The notes under the pieces: model-generated
Seen by the model: only the letters and a program-made list of their open reading frames with translations
Databases searched by the model: none
What the model was told of the DNA's origin: nothing
Source: a virus
Lineage: Duplodnaviria; Heunggongvirae; Uroviricota; Caudoviricetes
Strand: one strand, 5' to 3'
DNA length: 11,969 bases
IMG/VR virus record: IMGVR_UViG_2734482785_000020
Span: 1 to 11,969 of that record
Translations under genes and position numbers: made by a program
In this document: one piece after another, positions 537 through 11,181 of the stretch
How positions within the stretch are numbered: position 1 is the first letter of the stretch
How the letters are laid out: each line of letters begins with the position of its first letter

Positions 537-686
537 TCCGGCACCTCCTGAATAAACGCTGATTGCTTGACCTGATTTTACTCGTCATCACGGGGGGGGG
601 TAACAGTCATTTCATTCAGTATCACTGTGTTAATTTTGTGTTACTGGTCTAACCAGTGGTTTTTGGGCTCTGTCTCATAATCCGGT

Positions 687-992
687 GGGGGGTGCGCAAG
701 TGGGTCACAAAGGTCACAACAGTCAAAAACAATGCTTAATATCATGATTTAAAAAGGAAATATTTGTGACCTTTTCAAGGTCACAGAAGGTCACACGAGG
801 TCACAGCCTTCAAAAATACCTTAATTATCAATTTGTTATAATTTTAATGTGTGACCTTTAGTGACTTCTCCAAAAGGTTACATGTGACTTTGTTGTGACC
901 CATTTGTGACCTTTAAAATTTACAGCAATATATTGATATATAATATGTTTTTCTATTTGTGACTTTTGTGACCCACTTGCGCACCCCCCCCC
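687..992. repeat. Iteron array (about 13 copies of GGTCACA / TGTGACC) in dyad arrangement with an AT-rich centre, bounded by 32-bp inverted repeats; putative ori/crr-like replication region or recombinase site
   Basis: GGTCACA at 703, 712, 779, 789, 799; TGTGACC or TGTGACT at 765, 850, 883, 894, 905, 958, 967, plus a degenerate copy at 861; spacing 9-11 bp. Left arm 687-718 (GGGGGGTGCGCAAGTGGGTCACAAAGGTCACA) is the reverse complement of 958-992 with one mismatch. AT-rich segments at about 820-848 and 912-957. The array is non-coding and sits immediately 3' of the recombinase and alpha-like genes. Confidence 0.7.
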
Positions 993-1190
993 AAATTTTA
1001 GCGCGACCCCTTAAAATGTTAATTAAACTCACTTGCTCTGTCTCACTCTCGCTAACTCTCTGTGATTGAAATGTATATCGCTACTGTTTGACTCTTTCTG
1101 ATAATTCGGGTGCGAGAGCAAAAAAATTGATGACGGCCACCGCTGCAATATGACCGTCATCGCATTGCTGTTACCGTTGGTTCTGGCCAA

Positions 1191-1246: not shown

Positions 1247-2248
1247 TTACTCTGCTGGCTCTTTTTGTTCAGTGAATGCCATATTAGCTATCGGGTTAAA
1301 CCTTATGGCATCCGCCAGATAGTCGGGGGAAAAATGCGCATAAGTCATCGTTTGCTGGATAGTCGCATGTCCAAGAATCCGTTGTAATGTAACGATATTC
1401 CCACCGTTCATCATAAAGTGTGTGGCAAATGTATGACGCATGACATGCGTAGCCTGCCCCTTCGGTAAATCCGGCTTCACCTCCTGAAGGATCTCCCGGA
1501 ACTTCAGATAATCAACCTGATACAACAACCCCGTCCGGCGGGTCTTAATCAGCGGCACGACCGAATCAGCCACAGGAACCGAACGGGATTTTCCGTTTTT
1601 GGTGTTAAAGAACGTCACCCGGTTGCCAATGATGTGCTCTCCACGTAGTTCCGATGCTTCACTCCATCGGGCACCAGTAGAAAGACACAGAATGGCAACA
1701 CAACGCGCATCACCCTCCAGTCGCTCAAGAAGCCGCTCAATCTCATCATCAGAAAGAAAGGCCATCTCTGTATTCTGAATTTTTAGCTTGCGTATACTGC
1801 GCACAGGGTTCGGGTTGTGAAAGACTCCTGCTTCAATCAGCACCGTGAACATGGTAGACAGAACGCACAAGTCACGATTAATGCTGGATGGCATTAAGCC
1901 GGCCTGTAATTTCTCTGATCGATACTCAAGCATAAATTTTTGTGTCATCTGGCTGGCGCGCGGATCTCCCATTTCACGAATCACTTTCTCCAGCCGGATC
2001 CTATAGGTATCGCCGTAAGCCTGGTTACGGCCATCAAGCATCCACCACGTATCAAGCAACTCTGATAATCGCCGGCGATCTGCGGGTTTAGCCAGCCATG
2101 GGTTGTTATGGAAATTCTGTAAAATATGTTTTTCGAAGACCTCTGCACTCCCTTTCCTGACAAAAATTTTCCGTATCCGTTTGCCGTACGCCCCTTGGGG
2201 CCTGATATCGAGCATCCATCGCCCATCATCCATCTTTCTGATCGACAT
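1247..2248 (-). CDS. Tyrosine site-specific recombinase / integrase (333 aa, P2-Int-like size)
   Basis: C-terminal catalytic region HVMRHTFATHFMMNGGNIVTLQRILGHATIQQTMTYAHFSPDYL carries the conserved R, H-x-x-R and terminal Tyr of the phage-integrase fold. The ATG at 2248 lies 2 nt after the alpha-like stop (TAA 2251-2253), with a GGAGG-type Shine-Dalgarno embedded in the alpha 3' end, so the two are translationally coupled. Confidence 0.85.
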   Translation of the reverse strand: MSIRKMDDGRWMLDIRPQGAYGKRIRKIFVRKGSAEVFEKHILQNFHNNPWLAKPADRRRLSELLDTWWMLDGRNQAYGDTYRIRLEKVIREMGDPRASQMTQKFMLEYRSEKLQAGLMPSSINRDLCVLSTMFTVLIEAGVFHNPNPVRSIRKLKIQNTEMAFLSDDEIERLLERLEGDARCVAILCLSTGARWSEASELRGEHIIGNRVTFFNTKNGKSRSVPVADSVVPLIKTRRTGLLYQVDYLKFREILQEVKPDLPKGQATHVMRHTFATHFMMNGGNIVTLQRILGHATIQQTMTYAHFSPDYLADAIRFNPIANMAFTEQKEPAE

Positions 2249-2250
2249 AC

Positions 2251-4920
2251 TTAAGCCCCCTCCTTGTTACTAAATATCCAGCATTTCAGTGTATCCGGCT
2301 CTTTGCTTTCTGCTGCCCCTCTTCCGACATTTGCCTGCCTGGATACCTCGCTACGGACGGTTTTGTACTCAACCAGCGGTCGGGAACGCCCAGACCTGAG
2401 AAGCTCTAACATTTCCGGCTCAGTCCTGATCTCAACGCGGTGAATGGCGGCAGTCTGCCTCAGTTGCGGGATGCTGACGGCGAACCCCTTCCGGTATTCC
2501 TTGCCGAAGTGATTTACGCCGTATTTTGTTGTGCTGTCCAGGTAGTCGAATGCCTCCCAGAACGCTATGACCTCCGGTAAGTCATCCGTCACCGCTTCAG
2601 CCTGCGCTGCTGCCATTTCCTCCAGTTCCCGGCATGTGGCATCAAGCCATTCATCCGGGATATCAATAACGCATTTCAGCGCCCTGACCAGCGCGATAAG
2701 TTGTGCGTGATTTTTGGCGATGCGGGGATGGCGAATATTTTCGCAACCGCAAAGGCGGGTCGTTTCAGGCTCTGAGATCGCCAGAAACATTTCCATAATT
2801 GCCCGTTCGCGGCTGACCGCCCGATGAATAAAGCCTGATACTTCCTCAACGGGGTAGAGTTCCAGCCGTCTCGCCGCCAGTCGGGTATCAGGTGAATGGC
2901 GTTTTTTATCGGTATATATGCGAATCAGTCGCTCAATAATTGCCAGTGAGGCATTTACCCTGGCATTCTGTGCAATCACGATAGCACCCTTAAAATCCGG
3001 GTCGTAGGTGTTGTTATTGTTGGTCTTAACGCCACGAACGCCGATACCACCGCCGTTATAGAGGCTTTTCAGGTTGTCAAAGTCAAACGCGCCTTTTTTC
3101 TGCACCTTGTCCCCCCTGTCAGCCTCAATCAGCACAACGGGCAACCCGGCGACCTGTCCAAAAGTGCGCTTCCAGCCCGCTTCAGAGCCTTTCGTTGGAT
3201 CAACGCCTTCGTAGTTGTCACGACCGCACAGTCGCCAGCAAAAATCAATCAATGTTGATTTGCCCGTTCCGGGCTCTCCGGTGACTTCAAGGAAAGGGAA
3301 AGATTCTGCTTTATCCCGGATTTGCTCACTGAACAGCGAACCCAGCCAGAAAGCCAGGGTAATAATTCCCTTTTCACCAAAAGCCAGCCAGAGATCTTTC
3401 ACCCAGAATTCTGTGAATTCATCCGGTTTTTTATAGTTAATCTGTAATGTTGGTGTTTTACTTAATGGTTTTGCGTTTATGCCATCAATTTCAAAATAAT
3501 CCTCGTCATTGATTTCGTAGGTTTTACCATTACAAACCGCGACATCATTAAACAGCCACGCGCCAATCTCTTTGTTGTATCCGATAAAATCCTGACCAAT
3601 AACCTCTTTTATTGCGGGAAGGTCATTTTTTATTAATGCGTCAAGCTGCGTAGTCGTTCCGGTATAAATACCACCTTTTGCCACATGTAACAGGCGTTTC
3701 TTAAATTCAGATGCGGATGTTAATTGTCCTGATGTAAAAGTATTTTTCACTGTAGTACCATCCGGGAACGTTACACGGAAGTAATACCATGCTTCATCCG
3801 TGTCATTGTTTCGAATGTAATAAAGCGGCGCTGGGTTACAGTTTGCGATTTCTTTTACTGCACCGGATTCCTTAAGTGCAATTTTTCGCGCTTCATCTTC
3901 GTCAACATTTCGCTCATTAATGACACGCTCAACAGCCTTCATATGGCGCTCAATATCCAGCTTGAACCAGAAAACACGGTTATCAAAAGTAAAATGAAAT
4001 TCCTTTCGCTCACGAAAGGAAAACATTATTAGCGCCTTATCTCTTGGAGATTTCGCCAGCAATAAATCACCGTAATAGCGGTATCTTTTCACATCATGGC
4101 CATGCAGCCTTCCGGCGATGTGTAAATCATTCCAGTCGCGTTTATTGCTGTTTTTACCTGGTAATGCTGCCGCCGTTCTCCAGCCGTCTTCGGCGCTGCG
4201 TTCTGCATGTTTTTTCGCGTAACGCTCACCCGCACGCCCGTTATCCAGCGCCCACACGATAACCGGGCGTGGATTATCCCCGCACAGCTTCGCCAGTTCT
4301 TCCAGCGATTTATCAGGGTAGTTCACGGCAGACATGACAGAAACGGCCGCAATGCCATTCTGGTTAAGGCTGATGGCATCAAAGATACCCTCACAAATCC
4401 AGATTTCTTTGGCCTTGCTTAAATCCGCTCCCGGATAAGCCCACCACAGCCCCTTGTAACTGCCGGAAAAATTCGCCTTGCGAGCGAAGCGTTCCGGTCG
4501 GTCTATGATGCGCTCCCACCACACGCCGTCAGCCAGCGTAAAACGCACAGTAGCGGCCTGTTCGCCGCTTTCCTTGTCCTGGTATCGCTCCTGAGTAAAT
4601 GCCCCTTTCAGTGGCTCCACAGCAATATTGCGCGCCTCCTGAAGATAAGCTGCCGCTGCTGCACATGGGTCGTCTTTCGTGCTGATATAGCGATCTGACC
4701 ATGACGAAAACACATCCGGGTAAAGTTCTTTGGTCAGCAGGTCTGTACCGCATTTATTTTCGCGGCCACAGTGTACGATGTACGGCCTCTCAAGACTGGT
4801 AAACAGTTCCTTCTTTCCACATTGCGGACAAACACCATAGCGAAGATAGTTATTTTCTTCTTTAAAGTTGTAATCACGAATAAGACGGTTAATAATCTCT
4901 TTTCTGGTGTTATGTTTCAT
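2251..4920 (-). CDS. P4 alpha-like bifunctional DNA primase / SF3 helicase (about 889 aa)
   Basis: N-terminal zinc-binding motif (CPQCG ... HCGRENKCG), TOPRIM-like EGIFDAISLNQNG, Walker A VTGEPGTGKSTLIDF and a downstream VVLIEADRGD-type acidic motif, then a roughly 250-aa C-terminal extension, as in the iteron-binding domain of P4 alpha. Start placed at ATG 4920 (MKHNTRKEI); the ORF-track start at 4944 lies inside a hairpin and is less likely. Confidence 0.85.
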   Translation of the reverse strand: MKHNTRKEIINRLIRDYNFKEENNYLRYGVCPQCGKKELFTSLERPYIVHCGRENKCGTDLLTKELYPDVFSSWSDRYISTKDDPCAAAAAYLQEARNIAVEPLKGAFTQERYQDKESGEQAATVRFTLADGVWWERIIDRPERFARKANFSGSYKGLWWAYPGADLSKAKEIWICEGIFDAISLNQNGIAAVSVMSAVNYPDKSLEELAKLCGDNPRPVIVWALDNGRAGERYAKKHAERSAEDGWRTAAALPGKNSNKRDWNDLHIAGRLHGHDVKRYRYYGDLLLAKSPRDKALIMFSFRERKEFHFTFDNRVFWFKLDIERHMKAVERVINERNVDEDEARKIALKESGAVKEIANCNPAPLYYIRNNDTDEAWYYFRVTFPDGTTVKNTFTSGQLTSASEFKKRLLHVAKGGIYTGTTTQLDALIKNDLPAIKEVIGQDFIGYNKEIGAWLFNDVAVCNGKTYEINDEDYFEIDGINAKPLSKTPTLQINYKKPDEFTEFWVKDLWLAFGEKGIITLAFWLGSLFSEQIRDKAESFPFLEVTGEPGTGKSTLIDFCWRLCGRDNYEGVDPTKGSEAGWKRTFGQVAGLPVVLIEADRGDKVQKKGAFDFDNLKSLYNGGGIGVRGVKTNNNNTYDPDFKGAIVIAQNARVNASLAIIERLIRIYTDKKRHSPDTRLAARRLELYPVEEVSGFIHRAVSRERAIMEMFLAISEPETTRLCGCENIRHPRIAKNHAQLIALVRALKCVIDIPDEWLDATCRELEEMAAAQAEAVTDDLPEVIAFWEAFDYLDSTTKYGVNHFGKEYRKGFAVSIPQLRQTAAIHRVEIRTEPEMLELLRSGRSRPLVEYKTVRSEVSRQANVGRGAAESKEPDTLKCWIFSNKEGA

Positions 4921-4933
4921 ATATAAATCCCCC

Positions 4934-4963
4934 CCCCACTGCACCTTTTGCAGTGGGGTTTTT
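4934..4963 (+). terminator. Intrinsic-terminator-like hairpin oriented for the + strand, overlapping the alpha translation-initiation region
   Basis: 10-bp stem CCCCACTGCA / TGCAGTGGGG (4934-4943 and 4949-4958), 5-nt loop, then TTTTT (4959-4963); preceded by a C9 tract (4929-4937). On the minus-strand mRNA the same hairpin has no U-tract and partly sequesters the G-rich Shine-Dalgarno of alpha. Confidence 0.45.
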
Positions 4964-4964
4964 A

Positions 4965-5270
4965 TTAATTACTCGTTACTTCTTGTTTCCGGGCAATCCC
5001 TGCGGCTTCAGCCTGACGCCATGAAAAAATGCCGCCAGAAAGATGCATACCTGATTTTATTGATTGTAATTCCCGACTAATAATATTAGACAGAGATGTA
5101 ATATCTTTATTGGTAATTTCTGCACCCACTCCGCAGCTTCTTTCATCAAACATGATAGACATAAGGTTGATGAGATTAATTACATCTGTGAGATCTTCTT
5201 TTGCATCCTCTGTAAAAAAACCAACATATTCTTTATGTAAAAGATTTGCGTAATTCTGATTTTCAGACAT
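4965..5270 (-). CDS. Hypothetical protein (101 aa), AT-rich cargo-like ORF upstream of alpha
   Basis: Uninterrupted 101-codon ORF with GGGGAG about 5 nt upstream of the ATG. The composition is visibly more AT-rich than flanking genes. No recognisable motif. Confidence 0.55.
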   Translation of the reverse strand: MSENQNYANLLHKEYVGFFTEDAKEDLTDVINLINLMSIMFDERSCGVGAEITNKDITSLSNIISRELQSIKSGMHLSGGIFSWRQAEAAGIARKQEVTSN

Positions 5271-5337
5271 AAAAACTCCCCGACCCGTAAAGGTCGAAAT
5301 ATAAATTGAATTCAGTTATCAGTGGATAATTCGGGAA

Positions 5338-5556
5338 TCAGGCGGAAAGCTGCGTCACCTTTAACGCCTTAAAGTGAGTCATTCCCAGCTCTTCCAGCCC
5401 TTCGGCTGCGCGGCGTATGGCTTCGCCCGGTCCCGTTCCGTATACCGTTGCATGTGCATGTTTGGTTAACCCACGTTTATTAACGGCATAACCCAGCACA
5501 AAGAAACGTTTTTCACCGCTGCCATTATTTTTACGGGATGCTGAACGGGTTTTCAT
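5338..5556 (-). CDS. Hypothetical small protein (72 aa)
   Basis: ORF with an AAGGTG Shine-Dalgarno about 6 nt upstream; its ATG overlaps the stop of the upstream 62-aa ORF (ATGA overlap at 5553-5556), indicating translational coupling. Confidence 0.5.
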   Translation of the reverse strand: MKTRSASRKNNGSGEKRFFVLGYAVNKRGLTKHAHATVYGTGPGEAIRRAAEGLEELGMTHFKALKVTQLSA

Positions 5557-5741
5557 TTCTTCACCTTTACCACTGATGCTGTGAGTTCTTCTTCTGGTAA
5601 TTGATATTTCGGCGCAATTTCTTCCGTATACCTGATAGCGTCCCTTGCCGCTTTTCCTTTTGATTTATATTTATATGTGGTCCGGTAGTTTTCTTCCTCT
5701 CCTGTTACCACATTACGCAATTTAATATGAATCTCGTACAT
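5553..5741 (-). CDS. Hypothetical small basic protein (62 aa, MYEIHIKLRN...)
   Basis: Start chosen at ATG 5741 because of a GGAGGGG Shine-Dalgarno 7-8 nt upstream; the longer ORF-track version (to 5870) has no ribosome-binding site and overlaps the neighbouring ORF. Lys/Glu-rich. Confidence 0.45.
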   Translation of the reverse strand: MYEIHIKLRNVVTGEEENYRTTYKYKSKGKAARDAIRYTEEIAPKYQLPEEELTASVVKVKK

Positions 5742-5784
5742 CGTTACCCCTCCATCTCCAGAATGTTTACCGTGCATTTGTGGG

Positions 5785-5931
5785 TTAATTTCCCCGTTCA
5801 TTCGTGCGGCTGTACTCCATGCGGCTGGCAGCACGCAGGGCATCATCACAGGTCTGATATTCCCTGACATGAAAAAACTGACGAACGTCGCCGCTCTGGC
5901 AGTTAATCAGGGTGATAAGGAGCTTAAACAT
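5785..5931 (-). CDS. Hypothetical small protein (48 aa, MFKLLITLINCQSGD...)
   Basis: ATG at 5931 preceded by GGGAGG about 6 nt upstream; the start overlaps the stop of the upstream ORF. Short, so support is limited. Confidence 0.35.
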   Translation of the reverse strand: MFKLLITLINCQSGDVRQFFHVREYQTCDDALRAASRMEYSRTNERGN

Positions 5932-6445
5932 TGCACGCCTCCCGGATACGAATACGGGAAACAAAGACCAGACGGGATGCCGGAAGCAGGGCGCGTGCTT
6001 CGCGCTCACTGGCAGCGGTAACGGTATGAAGGCGAATATTTTTACCGTGGCACTGCATAAAGCGCCAGATAAAATCAGGGCGTGTTGATATAGCCATTTT
6101 GGCGGCTCCTCTTACTGATTTACGGAGTCTCGCCAGCACGCTGCTAAACATGGTGGCGGGACGTAACAGGGTTAGCAGACTGGCGTAAGAGAAACCAGCG
6201 AGCACAAAGGCTCCCCCATTACGCCCCGCCATAATACGGGGTAGGGTGGAATTACGGGCACAAAAAAACCGCATTACGGAAATATAGCGGCTACCCGCTC
6301 TTACAATCAGGCTGCTAAACCCGGCACCTGTTTTCTGAGGCGCGGGCAAACGATACGCCATGACAAAAAAGCGAGTCAAGCAATATTGCAAATTATTTTT
6401 GTGCAATTGCGCTGAGTGATTGATTTCTGTACGTAAAAAGTTCAT
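5924..6445 (-). CDS. Hypothetical protein (about 173 aa), Arg/Ala/Ser-rich
   Basis: Only long ORF in any frame across 5924-6451. ATG at 6445 with GGGA 6 nt upstream (an alternative ATG at 6451). The unusual composition leaves the frame and boundaries uncertain. Confidence 0.4.
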   Translation of the reverse strand: MNFLRTEINHSAQLHKNNLQYCLTRFFVMAYRLPAPQKTGAGFSSLIVRAGSRYISVMRFFCARNSTLPRIMAGRNGGAFVLAGFSYASLLTLLRPATMFSSVLARLRKSVRGAAKMAISTRPDFIWRFMQCHGKNIRLHTVTAASEREARALLPASRLVFVSRIRIREACNV

Positions 6446-6493
6446 AATCATTCCCGAACTGTAGATTCATAGATTTTTCCTTTTGTTGGTGAA

Positions 6494-6531: not shown

Positions 6532-7584
6532 TCACGAATTAAACGTAATCACCCCTTCATCCACCGCCGCATAAAGGTTCACATTCGCCAGTCCATAGCC
6601 CTGATGACGCCATGCCCGCATGTTCAGACGTTTGGTGTCTTCGTTCATGTCGAACTCTGTACGGTAAGAGCCTTCAATGATGTTAATCAGCAGGTTCGAA
6701 AGTGTGGTCACAGCCAGGCGTCCACCCGGCATAAACGGCGGCACAAAGGCAAAATGCCCGGCAATGGTGCTTCCCCATGCGCTGGCGGCTTCGGTGTCTC
6801 CTGCGCCGTTTGCGGTGCTGAAAAGACGCAGACGTTCAGCAGCTGCAAGTTCTGATCCCACCATCACCACAAGGCGCGGATCGTTCTGCCATTGTGCGGG
6901 AATTTTCGTTCTAATCAGATGCTGCGCCAGTGCATCCACCCCCGGAAAATCACCGCCTGCGCCCAGCGTGATGGCATCGCTGATAATCTGTCGCCCTTCG
7001 CTGGTCTTCCTGGCAATTTCATGCCAGCCGGGCGCAACATCCTCGCCGTTCGGGTTGATGTTCGGTGCGGTGAAGGTTGCCGCTGACGTGCCGTTAAAGC
7101 CAATCCGCAGATCATCCAGGTAAATTTTACTGGTCAGATAGCCACACAAAATCCCCAGCAGTGCATCGCGGTTTTTATCGTCATTCACTGCATTGGCCAT
7201 CACAACCAGGTTAATCCAGTCGAGATATTCACATGAGTCCATCTCATAGCATTCAACCGGAGAGCCTTTAATATCCATGGCACGGCTAAAGCGTCCTTCC
7301 TCGGCGCGTCCGGTGGATAAGCGCGCATCCCCAATAAGGTTAATAGCGGACTGATGCGGATTAACTGACAGATATTTTATTTGCCCGGAAAGCCAGTTAG
7401 AGGGGGAAATAAAATGCACAAACGGATTTTTTTGCGTGTATGCGCTGATACGTGCGTAAAGCTCTCTTTCTGCAAGCACGGTATTAATGGCGCTTTCGTT
7501 TTCGTTCATCGCCGGAGATGAAATATTGATACTTTCAAGCACGCTTTCGGCTTTATCTTTCAGTTCATTAATATTAAAAAACAT
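6532..7584 (-). CDS. P2 gpN-family major capsid protein homolog (about 350 aa)
   Basis: Alignment by eye with the recalled P2 gpN sequence: GFNG...V.GW, G.GGD...DAL and DP.LVV.VG..L.A blocks (ours LRIGFNGTS ... VAPGW ... LGAGGDFPGVDALA ... QNDPRLVVMVGSELAA) in the same order and spacing. Start placed at ATG 7584 (MFFNINELKDK) with an AGGGGA Shine-Dalgarno; the ORF-track start at 7656 would overlap the upstream gene by about 60 nt. Confidence 0.65.
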   Translation of the reverse strand: MFFNINELKDKAESVLESINISSPAMNENESAINTVLAERELYARISAYTQKNPFVHFISPSNWLSGQIKYLSVNPHQSAINLIGDARLSTGRAEEGRFSRAMDIKGSPVECYEMDSCEYLDWINLVVMANAVNDDKNRDALLGILCGYLTSKIYLDDLRIGFNGTSAATFTAPNINPNGEDVAPGWHEIARKTSEGRQIISDAITLGAGGDFPGVDALAQHLIRTKIPAQWQNDPRLVVMVGSELAAAERLRLFSTANGAGDTEAASAWGSTIAGHFAFVPPFMPGGRLAVTTLSNLLINIIEGSYRTEFDMNEDTKRLNMRAWRHQGYGLANVNLYAAVDEGVITFNS

Positions 7585-7594
7585 ACATTTCCCC

Positions 7595-8470
7595 TTAAAT
7601 AATATCTTTCTTTTCGGTATGTACAGACAGCAAAGCGGTCGCCGCATCCCGTTCAATTCGTGGCATACTTATTCTGGTATATTCCTGTAACGTCATCGCG
7701 TGGCGAATGGATTCGCTGCCGTTGCTGTAATAATGCTTCGTCAGAGTGCGTAACGCATCATTAATATATTCCTGCCGCAAATGGTTGTATTTAGCCATTA
7801 CTGAATAAGGAATGAATTTGATTTCCTCATTGCGTAAAGTGACGATCGCACTGACTGCCGAAATAATCTCCTTATAAAGATTGATACGGCGATTTGTTTC
7901 CGCCTCCAGTCCGTCAAGCGAAGCGGAAAAAATCCACGCATTATCGCCATCATGAGAAAGATTTTTCCCTGTATTAATAAGGCGTATAGCTTGCTCACAG
8001 GTGGCGCGCGTCTTGCCGCAATTTCGTTTCTCATTTTCAAGCAGATGCGTTTCATGCTCGATAACGTCTTTTACTGAATACCGATCACCATAAGGGTTAT
8101 CAGCACCAGTGGGCTGTAACGGAGTGTTACGCAATTCGCTGATTTTATTTTCCTGAGCAGTCACTTTGTTTTCTGCTTCGCGGATTTTTTGCTGAATTCG
8201 CGCAATGGCAATATCGCAATCTTCCGCAATATCCCGCATTTCTTCATCACTGATTTCATGCACTAATGGCAGGCAATACCCTGTGATATCGCGATATTCC
8301 TCGGCGTGTCTGTGCATGTATTTTGATGCAATGATATCTATCAGGCGAATAACCAGAGAGACTTCAGATTGTCCCTTTTGATATACAAAACTACGGGACC
8401 ACGATGCAATCGTGGTCATTTCCGGGCAGTTTTTAAAAACGGGTGTTAATATCGTGATTGTGTTTTCCAT
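7595..8470 (-). CDS. Hypothetical protein (291 aa), unknown function, with a predicted helical central segment
   Basis: Long ORF with GGAG upstream; stop 10 nt before the capsid-like start. The central segment (IARIQQKIREAENKVTAQENKISELRN) looks coiled-coil-like. No catalytic motif recognised. Confidence 0.6.
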   Translation of the reverse strand: MENTITILTPVFKNCPEMTTIASWSRSFVYQKGQSEVSLVIRLIDIIASKYMHRHAEEYRDITGYCLPLVHEISDEEMRDIAEDCDIAIARIQQKIREAENKVTAQENKISELRNTPLQPTGADNPYGDRYSVKDVIEHETHLLENEKRNCGKTRATCEQAIRLINTGKNLSHDGDNAWIFSASLDGLEAETNRRINLYKEIISAVSAIVTLRNEEIKFIPYSVMAKYNHLRQEYINDALRTLTKHYYSNGSESIRHAMTLQEYTRISMPRIERDAATALLSVHTEKKDII

Positions 8471-8475
8471 AAATG

Positions 8476-8787
8476 TTACTCCGGTAAATCAGTGTCTCTC
8501 TTTTTCTTTTTAGCGTGTTCATGCGGGTTATTTGCTTCGGCAATAGTTGGCGGATTGCGCAACCACCATAAAACATCACTTAACAACCAGGTGCATGAAC
8601 AGCGCCCCAAAGAATGACGGGGAGGAAAAGCGCCGATTTTCTCCAGTTCCCAACGCCGGGAGCGTGAAAGCGTTGTCATCTTTTTACACTTCTCTTCCCT
8701 GATGCGTTCTTCGCAGTCAAAACCATACTCGGCGAGTATGGTGCGACGCTGTTCTGGAGTTGGTGGAATGAATGCGGATTGAGTCAT
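8476..8787 (-). CDS. AlpA-like helix-turn-helix regulator with an N-terminal extension (103 aa)
   Basis: C-terminal half (MTTLSRSRRWELEKIGAFPPRHSLGRCSCTWLLSDVLWWL) fits the AlpA/Xis-type HTH pattern (S.S.....E..G.FP....LG.....W...EV..W). GGGAG Shine-Dalgarno 7 nt upstream of ATG 8787. The roughly 36-aa N-terminal extension is unexplained. Confidence 0.6.
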   Translation of the reverse strand: MTQSAFIPPTPEQRRTILAEYGFDCEERIREEKCKKMTTLSRSRRWELEKIGAFPPRHSLGRCSCTWLLSDVLWWLRNPPTIAEANNPHEHAKKKKRDTDLPE

Positions 8788-8908: not shown

Positions 8909-9964
8909 TTATCTTTTTAACCAATTGGTTATAGTGTCCTTCGAAATAGTAAATTTCTTTCCATTTTTTTCTGCAATCGCCTCTAGTGCTGTCGCTATCT
9001 TGGTTGGTTGGTCTTTCACGTCACTGAGATACTCACCTATAAGTAAAGCCAAAACATCCCGCATACGGCCAGATACGCGTTCTGACTTAGGTTTTGAGTG
9101 TGTTAATTTGTTGTCTTGGGATGTTGATTTGCTATCAGTCTCTGGAAGGGGGCCAAATGCGGAGGCTCTCCATTTATGAAGATTAGACATAATATAGGAG
9201 CTGTATTTCTTTGTCATTACACCATCACTACCCTCATTATTAATAACACTTTTAATAGTTAAAAAATCTGACTTTGACAGATACAAATCATCAATATCAA
9301 ACTTAATTTCTTTATCAGTTAACAGGCTTACGCTGAAATTACTATCAGGCGCATATATTCTATTGTCTTCACCTGGTTGAATTAACGGGCGAAATTTCCA
9401 TACACTGAAGAAAAAATCGGCATCTAATCCAAAAAAACCATGAACACTAGCATAGTATTTTAAATTTGGTGTAGAGGCATCTATTCCATATCGTGCTAAA
9501 CTTTCTAATTCTCTTTTAAGTGAGTCAGGAAATAATAAAACACTATTCACCACGCAAAAATCATCGCTCACACATAAATTAGTTTTGTAAGTAAAACTTT
9601 GATAAAAATCCCTTACATCCAGATTATCTATTGCAGATATTCCACCTGAACGCCTTTCTATTATATCAACAATGCGCCCGGCAATCTCGCTAAAGTTATT
9701 AAATGACTCATCAAGCCCTAAAAAGACCTCTTTTTCTGACTCATTCAATTCTTGTAAATCGTTAACAAAATCAATTAATTTATCATGCCAGACAAAATTA
9801 TCAGCACAAAATGGTTCAACATAGCAATAACCATCTTCAATCAATATATATAACCTTATATTCCCAGTCATAGCCCAATGAATAAAATCATCAACTGTAC
9901 AACCTAACAACTCCGCAGCCCTTGTTATTGGGTAAAACTCTCTTAGCGGTAATGCCATATTCAT
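8909..9964 (-). CDS. Hypothetical cargo protein (about 351 aa) with N- and C-terminal helix-turn-helix-like segments; AT-rich
   Basis: A 357-codon ORF open from TTG 9982; first ATGs at 9964 and 9958. N-terminus YPITRAAELLGCTVDDFIHWAMTGNI and C-terminus KIATALEAIAEKNGKKFTISKDTITNWLKR both resemble HTH motifs; the middle roughly 200 aa has no recognised motif. The composition is far more AT-rich than the integrase and the backbone, and the gene starts about 15 nt after the integrase stop. Confidence 0.65.
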   Translation of the reverse strand: MNMALPLREFYPITRAAELLGCTVDDFIHWAMTGNIRLYILIEDGYCYVEPFCADNFVWHDKLIDFVNDLQELNESEKEVFLGLDESFNNFSEIAGRIVDIIERRSGGISAIDNLDVRDFYQSFTYKTNLCVSDDFCVVNSVLLFPDSLKRELESLARYGIDASTPNLKYYASVHGFFGLDADFFFSVWKFRPLIQPGEDNRIYAPDSNFSVSLLTDKEIKFDIDDLYLSKSDFLTIKSVINNEGSDGVMTKKYSSYIMSNLHKWRASAFGPLPETDSKSTSQDNKLTHSKPKSERVSGRMRDVLALLIGEYLSDVKDQPTKIATALEAIAEKNGKKFTISKDTITNWLKR

Positions 9965-9978
9965 TCTCGCAAATAAAA

Positions 9979-11181
9979 TCAATCTCTTTTATTCAGTTTT
10001 TCCAGATATTCAAACCAGTCATTTAACGCTTGTAATTTAAAAGGAATATACTGGCTAAGGTTATAGTTAAATTCTGCCGAGCCAGCATTATAAACGTGCC
10101 CTAATAATGACTCGACAATATGAGGCATCACCCCCATATTATTTAGCCCCGTTGAAAATGTTCGTCTTAAATCGTGTAGCGTCCATTTCTCATTATGGCC
10201 AAACATTTTATACATTCGACGACCTTTCAGGGATACGGCTGTGTGTGTTCGTTCTTCCCCTAAAAGCAATCCTGTATCTCCTGTTTTTCCCTTTAAATCT
10301 TTTAACCAACCTCTTATAGCTACAGGTATTGGGCGAACAATTTTTTTACTGTTTTTGCTATTCCCCCGTGGAACTGTCCATTCCCATGAAATGAAATCCC
10401 ACTCACTCCAACGGGAGCGGCGCAACTCTGCCGTTCTGGCACCAAATAAAATCAATAGTTTTATTAGTCGAGAAAAATAAATATCTCCGCGCTCTTCTTT
10501 TCCAAAACGCCAAAGATCTGCTAATTCCCTGTCACTCAACACTCGATCGCGTTGCCCGGCAGCTTCGCCCACATCGCTTAAAGTTAAGTGGGCAAGCGCA
10601 TCGCAAACGGCATAATGCCGAACATTACAGAACCTCAATGCCTGTTTTGCGTGTTGAAACATTCTTCCGGCTGTTTTGGGGCTGATTGCACGTATTTCGT
10701 CAAAGCAGTTAACCCAATACCGCGTATCGCACCGTGATAACGGAAAACTCCCAATTCTGGGGTAAATATGTTTGCACAATTGCGCCCGTATCAGATCTTC
10801 ATCTTTGCGTTTGTGCCTTGCATAGTTAACAAGCCAGTACTCCAGCGCATCCCGAACAGTAACAGGGGTGCGGGTTTCTTCGGTAAAAAGCTGAATCTCA
10901 ATTTTGGGGTTAAGTCCGTTAGCCAACCAGTGGCGGCAGCGTTCCCGCCATTTACGGGCATCTTTCAAACTCATATCAGGATAACGCCCCAACGTTACCC
11001 GATTAAGAGTGCTATCACGCCCACCGAGCCGATATGAAAAAACCCAGCTCACATGCCCTCTTGTGGACAATCTAACCCCCAGCCCTTCACCATCAGCAAT
11101 CATCTCAACATGCTTTCTGGTTGTGCCTGTCAGGGCTTTTAGTTTCCTGTCACTCAGCTTATTAGTTCCAGACACCTTCAT
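9979..11181 (-). CDS. P4-type tyrosine integrase (about 400 aa)
   Basis: N-terminal arm-binding-type domain (GLGVRLSTRGHVSWVFSYRLGGRDSTLNRVTLGRYPDMSLKDARKWRE) and C-terminal catalytic core (LHDLRRTFSTGLNNMGVMPHIVESLLGHV...). Start at ATG 11181 (MKVSGTNK) with GGAG upstream; the ORF-track extension to 11271 has no ribosome-binding site. Confidence 0.85.
   Translation of the reverse strand: MKVSGTNKLSDRKLKALTGTTRKHVEMIADGEGLGVRLSTRGHVSWVFSYRLGGRDSTLNRVTLGRYPDMSLKDARKWRERCRHWLANGLNPKIEIQLFTEETRTPVTVRDALEYWLVNYARHKRKDEDLIRAQLCKHIYPRIGSFPLSRCDTRYWVNCFDEIRAISPKTAGRMFQHAKQALRFCNVRHYAVCDALAHLTLSDVGEAAGQRDRVLSDRELADLWRFGKEERGDIYFSRLIKLLILFGARTAELRRSRWSEWDFISWEWTVPRGNSKNSKKIVRPIPVAIRGWLKDLKGKTGDTGLLLGEERTHTAVSLKGRRMYKMFGHNEKWTLHDLRRTFSTGLNNMGVMPHIVESLLGHVYNAGSAEFNYNLSQYIPFKLQALNDWFEYLEKLNKRD

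What the first reader, a model, noticed from the sequence alone, without database searches (positions are those of the whole stretch)
4965..5270. Second AT-rich insertion-like ORF just upstream of the primase-helicase
The 101-aa ORF is visibly more AT-rich than the flanking small-ORF chain and the alpha gene, especially its 5' two-thirds, and is bracketed by structured intergenic segments. This suggests a second cargo slot within the replication operon. Function is unknown; it could be an anti-defence or helper-interference factor.
Basis: seen in the sequence. Interest (0 to 1): 0.45.

Follow-up and report, generated by a model that had tools for sequence, protein, structure and literature searches.

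The report
Hypervariable core gene beside satellite primase
The AT-rich 101-codon gene just upstream of the primase is not an inserted cargo gene: it is a fixed but extremely variable core gene of a P4-related phage satellite, and its variants track the satellite's helper-phage-type integrase, so it probably tunes the satellite to a particular helper phage.

Summary
ORF 4965-5270 (-) has GC 0.36 and GC3 0.27, against 0.49/0.50 for the adjacent primase-helicase. Conserved hairpins flank it on both sides.

The "insertion / second cargo slot" reading does not hold. A homologous 94-123 aa ORF sits at this position in the window, in all 21 Escherichia relatives fetched, and in the distant metagenomic relatives examined. 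This is true even where the primase belongs to a different family. Every allele is AT-rich, so low GC is a family trait and not a sign of recent arrival.

The gene is the hypervariable spot of a conserved operon:
- Nucleotide identity falls to 0.53 inside it, against 0.93-0.98 in the flanks.
- Alleles are 36-95% identical, and synonymous sites are also highly diverged, so the alleles are old.
- The conserved termini are under purifying selection.

It has no Pfam, PHROG, NCBIfam, PADLOC or PDB match. It is not P4 Cnr and not P4 epsilon.

Its allele types co-vary perfectly with the alleles of int2, which lies 2.7 kb downstream, while the primase C-terminus and iterons between and beyond them reassort. 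Int2 is 77-88% identical to the integrases of different P2-like phages, and each of those phage integrases is paired with a different C repressor and Cox.

Best reading (inferred): a small acidic helical protein matched to the helper lineage. Its function remains untested.

The parts
4965..5270 (-). orf101: 101-aa acidic (pI 4.9) protein of an uncharacterised family; a core gene of the satellite's early/replication operon
   Evidence: ORF. Homologues are found at the same position in every relative. Outside the central segment pN/pS is 0.27-0.45. pI values are.
5097..5174 (-). Hypervariable central segment (codons 33-58), the predicted tip of a helical hairpin
   Evidence: The protein alignments show conserved YxGFFTE and GGIFS(W) motifs flanking a variable middle. 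The nucleotide-identity minimum of 0.53 falls at about 5120-5210. The AF2 model has helices at 21-40 and 54-73. In this segment pN is 0.5-0.65 and pS is saturated.
4934..4958 (.). Conserved G+C-rich hairpin between orf101 and the primase start. On the + strand it is followed by TTTTTATT, a canonical terminator for an antisense transcript
   Evidence: dG -20, z -3.7; compensatory variant in L009/L012.
5278..5299 (-). Terminator-like hairpin followed by GGGAG(SD)-TTTTT-ATG, directly upstream of orf101; a possible attenuator that gates orf101 and alpha
   Evidence: A compensatory A-T to G-C change, with G-U intermediates, is seen in relatives.
2251..4920 (-). Alpha: Zn-finger/Toprim/P-loop primase-helicase, the downstream partner of orf101 in the operon. 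Its C-terminal third (aa 601-889) is the iteron-specificity region
   Evidence: Pfam Toprim_2/3 and PHROG 1139. It shares only the Toprim and P-loop motifs with P4 alpha. The C-terminal type matches the iteron type in the window and all 21 Escherichia relatives.
1247..2248 (-). int2: P2-phage-type tyrosine integrase whose allele type co-varies with the orf101 allele type
   Evidence: Pfam Int_N + Phage_integrase. It is 88% identical to the integrase of Peduoviridae phage vB_EcoM-569R5. Co-variation: r = 0.85, and 7 orf101 types map onto 5 int2 types without exception.
679..997 (.). Probable replication origin: 41-nt inverted repeat arms and ten GGTCACA/TGTGACC iterons around an AT-rich core. 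It contains no link to orf101 and serves as the control for the co-variation argument
4868..4965 (+). Candidate antisense RNA across the alpha ribosome-binding site: TTGTAA-17-AATAAT promoter-like site, a ~60-nt transcript, and the hairpin terminator
   Evidence: promoter and terminator scans. Both hexamers are invariant in 10 loci while neighbouring wobble positions vary. The RNA fold has z = -4.9 and places CAU (anti-AUG) in the 5' loop. This is inferred and not shown.

Best explanation
SHOWN.
- orf101 is a real protein-coding core gene of a P4-related satellite family. The family layout is int1, cargo, AlpA, C4/CI-RNA immunity with Icd-like ORF, three small ORFs, orf101, primase-helicase, [int2], ori, ogr/delta, with a P2-type capsid homologue placed variably.
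- It is always the gene immediately upstream of the primase. It is always AT-rich.
- It is the one hypervariable gene of an otherwise 90-98% conserved operon.
- Its alleles are old, because synonymous sites are saturated between types. They are mosaic.
- They are inherited together with the alleles of int2, even though the primase C-terminus that lies between them reassorts freely, as do the iterons beyond int2.
- Int2 alleles are 77-88% identical to the integrases of different P2-like (Peduoviridae) phage lineages. Each of those lineages carries its own C repressor and Cox.

INFERRED.
- orf101 encodes a small acidic helical-hairpin protein made together with the primase once the early operon reads through the upstream terminator-like hairpin.
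- Its conserved ends (YxGFFTE, GGIFS) form a common scaffold or contact.
- Its hypervariable tip recognises a lineage-specific protein of the helper's lysogeny module: the C repressor, Cox/Apl or Int.
- It would therefore match the satellite to one helper lineage, a role analogous to P4 epsilon but not homologous to it.
- The low GC is a long-standing property of a fast-turning-over, recombining specificity gene. It is not evidence of recent insertion.
For: Core status.
- The gene is present at the same position in all 21 Escherichia relatives. The genome counts agree, at 66 genomes for the ORF region and 66 for the primase.
- It is also present in relatives at 26-35% identity, including elements with a non-homologous DUF927-type primase.

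Composition. GC is 0.33-0.42 in every allele, against 0.48-0.56 for the neighbouring primase.

Hypervariability.
- Protein identity to the window is 36-95%, against 88-96% for alpha and 96-99% for orf72.
- A valley of nucleotide identity (0.53) lies exactly over the ORF.
- pS is 0.4-0.77, against 0.06-0.32 for alpha.

The gene is coding. Outside the centre pN/pS is 0.27-0.45, and the motifs are kept down to 26% identity.

Helper link.
- orf101 type predicts int2 type in 23 of 23 elements. Distance correlation is r = 0.85, against 0.06-0.49 for the neighbouring genes.
- On 13 distinct three-locus haplotypes the permutation p is 1.5e-5.
- The interleaved pair alpha-C-terminus and iterons co-varies independently. 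Recombination therefore does separate these segments.
- Int2 types match different Peduoviridae integrases: 88% to 569R5, 82% to Xuanwuvirus P884B11/Chuche, 77% to P88.
- About 339 E. coli genomes match window int2 at 80-90% nt identity, and the closest phage-collection match (569R5) is ~87% nt identical, so these are probably P2-like prophage integrases; the annotation under the listed hits says only 'phage integrase'.
- Those phages differ together in Int (44-53% identity), C (32-47%) and Cox (no more than 29%).

Other points.
- All family members are acidic, pI 4.5-5.7, as expected for a protein-binding factor and not for a DNA-binding one.
- orf101-like genes persist in elements that lack int2 (L020, L022, L024). 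The protein is therefore not merely an int2 accessory.
Against: - The AF2 model is only moderately confident (pLDDT 69).
- L024 carries a true epsilon homologue (PF25738, E = 1.4e-19) next to its orf101-like gene. orf101 is therefore not simply "the epsilon of this family".
- The co-variation rests on 23 related, non-independent elements, and the type cut-offs were chosen by me.
- The co-variation is equally compatible with direct orf101-Int2 co-adaptation.
- No dN/dS above 1 could be shown, because synonymous sites are saturated.
- I did not test whether host genomes carry a helper prophage of the matching type.
Confidence: 0.4

Rival explanations
1. Cnr-like replication regulator. orf101 would be the functional analogue of P4 Cnr: a ~100-aa protein encoded directly upstream of the primase-helicase that binds it and limits replication or copy number.
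For: - The position and size match P4: ORF106/cnr lies 14 nt upstream of alpha, and 90% of P4-like elements have a cnr-family gene between epsilon and alpha (PMC8628076).
- orf101-like genes always abut the primase, and in L020 the stop overlaps the primase start.
- The conserved terminal motifs could contact a conserved partner.
Against: - There is no sequence relationship to Cnr/DUF5375: BLASTP finds nothing and profile-profile probability is 0.2%.
- orf101 alleles do not track the primase. Distance correlation is r = 0.06 with the alpha N-terminus. One orf101 type occurs with two or three alpha-C-terminus/iteron types.
- The same protein family sits upstream of two non-homologous primase families.
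- A regulator of a 90-96% conserved primase has no obvious reason to be 36-95% variable.
- P4 cnr has backbone GC, 0.60.
Confidence: 0.17
2. Int2 partner. orf101 would be a directionality or activity factor that binds the satellite's P2-type integrase Int2 directly, and the two would co-evolve.
For: orf101 and int2 types are perfectly nested across a recombining interval. Recombinases commonly have small, allele-specific accessory proteins (general knowledge).
Against: - orf101-like genes are intact in elements without any int2 (L020, L022, L023, L024; tblastn negative).
- The protein is acidic and is predicted to be a long helical hairpin. Known tyrosine-recombinase RDFs such as Xis, Cox, Apl and AlpA/Vis are basic winged-helix or HTH DNA binders (from knowledge).
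- AlpA is already present.
Confidence: 0.17
3. Anti-defence protein. orf101 would be a small acidic early protein that inhibits a variable host immune system, such as a restriction or abortive-infection system.
For: It is small, acidic and early-expressed, and it is hypervariable with old alleles. That is a pattern typical of arms-race genes.
Against: - No similarity to any known family.
- The gene is never absent and never swapped for an unrelated gene, as counter-defence cargo usually is.
- Co-variation with int2 is unexplained by this model.
Confidence: 0.1
4. Recently inserted foreign cargo. An AT-rich gene dropped into a second cargo slot in the replication operon.
For: GC is 0.36 in an operon at ~0.49, with hairpins on both sides.
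Against: - Presence, synteny and homology are uniform in every relative, including ones whose primase is only 52-59% identical or non-homologous.
- Every allele is equally AT-rich.
- No empty slot and no unrelated occupant was seen.
Confidence: 0.03

Closest known systems
P4 Cnr (ORF106; Pfam DUF5375/PF17345), copy-number regulator encoded just upstream of P4 alpha
   Same: About 100 aa; it is the last gene before the primase-helicase in the early (left) operon of a P2-dependent satellite.
   Different: - No detectable sequence or profile similarity.
- P4 cnr has backbone GC, 0.60.
- orf101 alleles do not follow the primase specificity domain.
- The primase here shares only the Toprim and P-loop motifs with P4 alpha.
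P4 epsilon (Pfam 'Derepression' PF25738), which derepresses the P2 helper prophage
   Same: A small early-operon protein of a P2-dependent satellite. A helper-directed, lineage-specific role is what the int2 co-variation suggests for orf101.
   Different: - No PF25738 match for orf101 or any other small ORF in the window.
- In L024 a true epsilon homologue and an orf101-like gene sit side by side. They are therefore distinct functions or distinct targets.
Cargo/defence hotspots of P4-like satellites
   Same: AT-rich composition and high sequence diversity. The window's own hotspot gene, orf357, has GC 0.348.
   Different: Hotspots vary in gene content: orf357 is absent or only 26-43% identical in relatives. 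The orf101 position always holds the same family. There is no PADLOC match.

Membership tests
P4 Cnr / DUF5375 (PF17345) | Sequence match to the DUF5375 profile or to P4 ORF106 | tested here: not met
   Pfam scans of the window protein and of 23 family members gave no PF17345 hit at E <= 1. BLASTP found no alignment. hhalign of the orf101 profile against a 19-sequence Cnr profile gave probability 0.2%.
P4 Cnr / DUF5375 (PF17345) | Gene lies immediately upstream of the satellite primase-helicase in the early operon | tested here: met
   The gap to the alpha ATG is 44 nt in the window. The position is the same in every relative. Compare P4.
P4 Cnr / DUF5375 (PF17345) | Binds alpha and down-regulates replication | not testable with these tools
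   There is only indirect evidence against: the alleles do not co-vary with any part of alpha.
P4 epsilon / 'Derepression' (PF25738) | Sequence match to PF25738 | tested here: not met
   P4 epsilon scores 170 bits and the L024 neighbour gene scores 70 bits. orf101 and its relatives give no hit at E <= 1.
P4 epsilon / 'Derepression' (PF25738) | Inactivates the helper's immunity repressor | not testable with these tools
   This is inferred only, from the co-variation with the helper-type int2 and the linked divergence of helper C, Cox and Int.
Satellite cargo / defence hotspot gene | Presence, absence or replacement by unrelated genes among related elements | tested here: not met
   A homologous ORF is present in 21 of 21 Escherichia relatives and in all distant contexts examined.
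Satellite cargo / defence hotspot gene | Match to a known defence or anti-defence family | tested here: not met
   PADLOC, Pfam, PHROG and NCBIfam gave no hits.
P2-type C repressor or Cox (the gene next to int in helper phages) | Sequence similarity to GpC or Cox of the phage whose integrase matches int2 | tested here: not met
   BLASTP of orf101 against GpC and Cox of vB_EcoM-569R5 gave nothing below E = 27. tblastn against 50,697 phage records found nothing at E < 0.7.

The most novel reading that the evidence does not exclude
orf101 and Int2 would form a two-part helper-capture module. The satellite carries a copy of its helper lineage's integrase and an allele-matched small acidic protein that neutralises that lineage's C repressor or Cox. 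Together these would derepress and excise an otherwise non-inducible P2-like prophage, or otherwise recombine with it. The hypervariable tip of orf101 would be the determinant of which helper a satellite can exploit.
Probability: 0.2. Interest if true: 0.7.

Novelty: new variant of a known kind. Interest (0 to 1): 0.45.

Why it matters
Helper range is poorly understood for P4-type satellites beyond P4 and P2 themselves. This work identifies an uncharacterised protein family: only 14 clusters at 50% identity among 1.8 billion representatives. The family is fixed next to the primase, is the fastest-diverging gene of the operon, and is inherited together with a helper-type integrase. That gives a concrete, testable candidate for a helper-specificity determinant. 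It also shows that AT-richness in a mobile element can mark an old, recombining specificity gene and not a recent insertion.

Tried and rejected
1. Family and fold searches found nothing usable.
   - Pfam, PHROGs, NCBIfam and PADLOC gave no hits.
   - The PDB sequence profile search gave nothing.
   - Foldseek against BFVD gave E >= 0.5.
   - The AFDB library was unavailable.
2. The Cnr homology tests were negative.
3. AT-richness caused by an origin or iterons inside the ORF was rejected. All GGTCACA copies lie at 703-973, plus one at 6706. No repeats were found in the ORF.
4. Rfam gave no RNA family at or beside orf101.
5. orf101 as a diverged helper C or Cox showed no similarity.
6. I searched next to int2 for a helper attP-like core taken from the 569R5 prophage junction. 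No shared word of 12 nt or more was found.
7. Positive selection in the central segment could not be assessed because synonymous sites are saturated. pN/pS is 0.6-1.2 between types and 0.28-0.33 between the two closest types.
8. Literature searches found no description of this satellite subfamily or of this gene.

Full report
**Context**

The window is an integrated P4-related satellite of Escherichia. All genes listed here are on the minus strand.
- int1 at 9979-11181, followed by an AT-rich cargo gene, orf357, at 8909-9982.
- An AlpA-type regulator at 8476-8787.
- orf291 plus a P2-family major-capsid homologue at 6532-7584.
- An "Icd-like" ORF at 5924-6451 that contains a C4/CI-type antisense immunity RNA (RF01695, 74 bits, 6149-6236).
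- Small ORFs: orf62 at 5553-5741 and orf72 at 5338-5556.
- The ORF under study, at 4965-5270.
- An 889-aa Zn-finger/Toprim/P-loop primase-helicase ("alpha") at 2251-4920.
- A second integrase, int2, at 1247-2248.
- An iteron-rich AT-rich region at 679-997.
- An ogr/delta zinc-finger gene at 282-536.

RefSeq annotation of close relatives shows the same layout between gcd and hpt, or at a tRNA-Arg gene.

**Observation**

The 101-codon ORF is there, and it is AT-rich for its operon.
- Its GC is 0.359 and its GC3 is 0.265. Alpha has 0.488/0.503 and orf72 has 0.511/0.466.
- The 5' two-thirds are the most AT-rich: 0.29, 0.34 and 0.44 by thirds.
- Against the whole window it is only the 10.7th percentile, because the cargo gene, the origin and the att flank are equally AT-rich.

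Both flanking spacers are structured.
- A 10-bp G+C hairpin lies at 4934-4958 (dG -20 kcal/mol, z -3.7).
- A terminator-like hairpin with a T-run lies at 5299-5278, directly before the start codon.
- In relatives both keep their pairing through compensatory substitutions. They are therefore functional elements and not chance.

**Not an insertion and not a cargo slot**

- Megablast finds the ORF region in 66 E. coli genomes and most of the alpha gene in 66.
- All 21 Escherichia relatives whose DNA I fetched have a 99-101-aa ORF between orf72 and alpha.
- An exhaustive profile search of 1.84 billion representatives found only 14 clusters.
- Wherever the distant clusters could be placed on contigs, the gene is again the one immediately upstream of a primase, inside the same kind of satellite.
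- This includes elements whose primase is a different family (Zn_Ribbon_Prim + Toprim_3 + DUF927, with no BLASTP hit to the window's alpha).
- More distant, phage-like relatives of alpha (Thauera, 44% identity, and an E. coli L725 prophage) have an ogr/delta gene upstream and no orf101.
- The true cargo slot behaves differently: orf357 is absent or only 26-43% identical in relatives.
- Every orf101 allele is AT-rich. In E. coli GC is 0.35-0.37 and GC3 is 0.27-0.32. In the distant relatives GC is 0.33-0.42, next to primases at 0.49-0.56.

Low GC is therefore a conserved property of the family.

**Hypervariability**

- Protein identity to the window across relatives is 36-95% for orf101. It is 88-96% for alpha, 96-99% for orf72, 91-98% for orf62 and 85-95% for the Icd-like ORF.
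- Mean pairwise nucleotide identity is 0.93-0.98 in the flanks and drops to 0.53 in the middle of the ORF.
- Synonymous divergence is also much higher: pS is 0.4-0.77, against 0.06-0.32 in alpha. dN/dS is 0.25-0.8, against 0.04-0.18.
- The alleles are therefore older than their flanks, and this is more than a gene under relaxed constraint.
- The ends of the protein are conserved even at 26% overall identity: YxGFFTE...L.DVI in the N-terminal part and SL.NI..REL..IK....GGIFS in the C-terminal part. Codons 33-58 and the extreme C-terminus are variable and occur in mosaic combinations.
- Outside the centre pN/pS is 0.27-0.45, which indicates purifying selection.
- In the centre pN is 0.5-0.65 and synonymous sites are saturated, so positive selection cannot be judged.

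**What the protein looks like**

- All members are acidic, with pI 4.5-5.7.
- AlphaFold2 with a 23-sequence alignment gives pLDDT 69 and two long helices (21-40 and 54-73), with the variable segment at their tip.
- No family, solved structure or viral model matches.
- It is unrelated to P4 Cnr/DUF5375.
- It is unrelated to P4 epsilon/PF25738.
- It is unrelated to the C repressor or Cox of the phage whose integrase resembles int2.

**Co-variation**

The C-terminal third of alpha has types that match the iteron variant downstream of int2 without exception: AGGTCACA, CGGTTACA or AGGTTACA. This is the expected initiator-origin pairing. It also shows that recombination separates these segments.

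orf101 types do not follow alpha.
- The distance correlation is 0.06 with the alpha N-terminus in the first 10 loci. With the alpha C-terminus it is 0.49 in those 10 loci and 0.47 in all 23.
- One orf101 type occurs with up to three alpha-C-terminus/iteron types.

orf101 types do follow int2.
- Seven orf101 types map onto five int2 types with no exception (r = 0.85).
- On the 13 distinct three-locus haplotypes, permuting the int2 labels reaches this nesting with p = 1.5e-5.

There are thus two interleaved co-varying pairs: orf101 with int2, and the alpha C-terminus with the iterons. Simple linkage does not explain this pattern, so it points to selection for matched pairs.

Caveats: the elements are related, the sample is small, and I chose the type cut-offs.

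**What int2 is**

- It is 88% identical to the integrase of the P2-like phage vB_EcoM-569R5 and 56% identical to P2 Int.
- DNA similarity to that phage is ~87% and is confined to the integrase coding region, window 1286-2211.
- About 339 E. coli genomes match window int2 at 80-90% nt identity, probably P2-like prophage integrases of the 569R5 type; the annotation under the listed hits says only 'phage integrase'.
- The other int2 types have different best matches: Xuanwuvirus P884B11/Chuche at 82%, P88 at 77%, and for one type nothing closer than 57%.
- In those phages the integrase sits directly downstream of the C repressor and opposite cox.
- The three phages differ together in Int (44-53% identity), C (32-47%) and Cox (no more than 29%).

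Int2 type is therefore a marker of a helper lineage, and orf101 type follows it.

**Mechanism proposed (inferred)**

- orf101 is expressed with alpha from the early operon, downstream of the C4/CI-RNA immunity region and of a terminator-like hairpin. It would be made when the satellite is derepressed.
- Its conserved ends make a common scaffold or contact.
- Its variable tip binds a lineage-specific protein of the helper's lysogeny module (C, Cox/Apl or Int). That would match the satellite to its helper.
- This resembles what P4 epsilon does, but the protein is not a member of that family. L024 has both an epsilon homologue and an orf101-like gene, so the target may differ from epsilon's.
- I put this explanation at about 0.4.

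**Rivals**

- A Cnr-like replication regulator fits the position. It does not fit the lack of co-variation with alpha or the association with two unrelated primase families.
- A direct Int2 partner fits the co-variation. It does not fit the presence of orf101-like genes in elements without int2, nor the acidic, non-HTH protein.
- An anti-defence role has no positive evidence.
- Recent insertion is contradicted.

**The hairpins**

- The upstream hairpin looks like an intrinsic terminator or attenuator on the coding strand.
- The downstream hairpin lacks a U-tract on the coding strand. On the opposite strand it is a canonical terminator.
- On that opposite strand it lies ~40 nt downstream of a promoter-like site, TTGTAA-17-AATAAT at 4868-4896. 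Both hexamers are invariant in 10 loci while nearby wobble positions vary.
- The predicted ~60-nt antisense RNA would cover the alpha Shine-Dalgarno sequence and start codon. It folds well (z -4.9), with CAU in the 5' loop.
- This would be a countertranscript-type control of the initiator. It is a lead and not a result.

**Verdict**

The gene is a family-specific, hypervariable core gene of unknown biochemical function, with a new and testable link to a helper-type integrase.

Noticed in passing
window 679-997: Probable replication origin: 41-nt inverted-repeat arms (679-719 / 957-997) and ten GGTCACA/TGTGACC iterons around an AT-rich core. The iteron variant (AGGTCACA, CGGTTACA or AGGTTACA) matches the type of alpha residues 601-889 in every Escherichia element examined.
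   Followed up: partly
window 1247-2248 (-): A second integrase lies 2 nt downstream of the primase and is of P2-phage type. It is 88% identical to vB_EcoM-569R5 Int. Other alleles best match Xuanwuvirus P884B11 or P88. DNA similarity to the phage is confined to the coding region. No helper attP-like core was found next to it.
   Followed up: partly
window 4868-4965 (+): Candidate ~60-nt antisense RNA over the alpha ribosome-binding site and start codon. It has a conserved promoter-like TTGTAA-17-AATAAT and then the 4934-4958 hairpin plus TTTTTATT. Its fold has z = -4.9 and shows CAU in a loop.
   Followed up: partly
window 6149-6356 (-): C4 antisense RNA (RF01695, 74 bits) lies at 6149-6236. 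An isrK-like element (47 bits, just under the 50-bit threshold) lies at 6262-6343. A c4-a1b1 target-like match (28.6 bits, below the 46.7-bit threshold) lies at 6304-6356. All are inside the annotated "Icd-like" ORF, indicating P4/P1-type RNA immunity.
   Followed up: no
window 5553-6009 (-): The ~60-aa ORF that relatives have between the Icd-like ORF and orf62 appears frameshifted or fused in the window: there is a 105-aa ORF at 5553-5870 and a 74-aa ORF at 5785-6009. One relative (L010) has a fused 375-nt ORF.
   Followed up: no
window 6532-8470 (-); L001, L007, L009-L011: The module of orf291 plus the P2-family capsid homologue lies between AlpA and the Icd-like ORF in the window, L005, L006 and L012. 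In other relatives a ~24%-identical capsid homologue lies at the far end, next to a MazEF pair, so the capsid module is mobile within the family.
   Followed up: no
window 8909-9982 (-): orf357 (GC 0.348) behaves as true cargo. It is absent from the tRNA-Arg-integrated relatives and is only 26-43% identical in most gcd-site relatives. It has no family match.
   Followed up: no
L024 4558-4827 (+): A distant relative of the satellite carries a true P4 epsilon homologue (PF25738, E = 1.4e-19) inserted between its orf101-like gene and the primase.
   Followed up: partly
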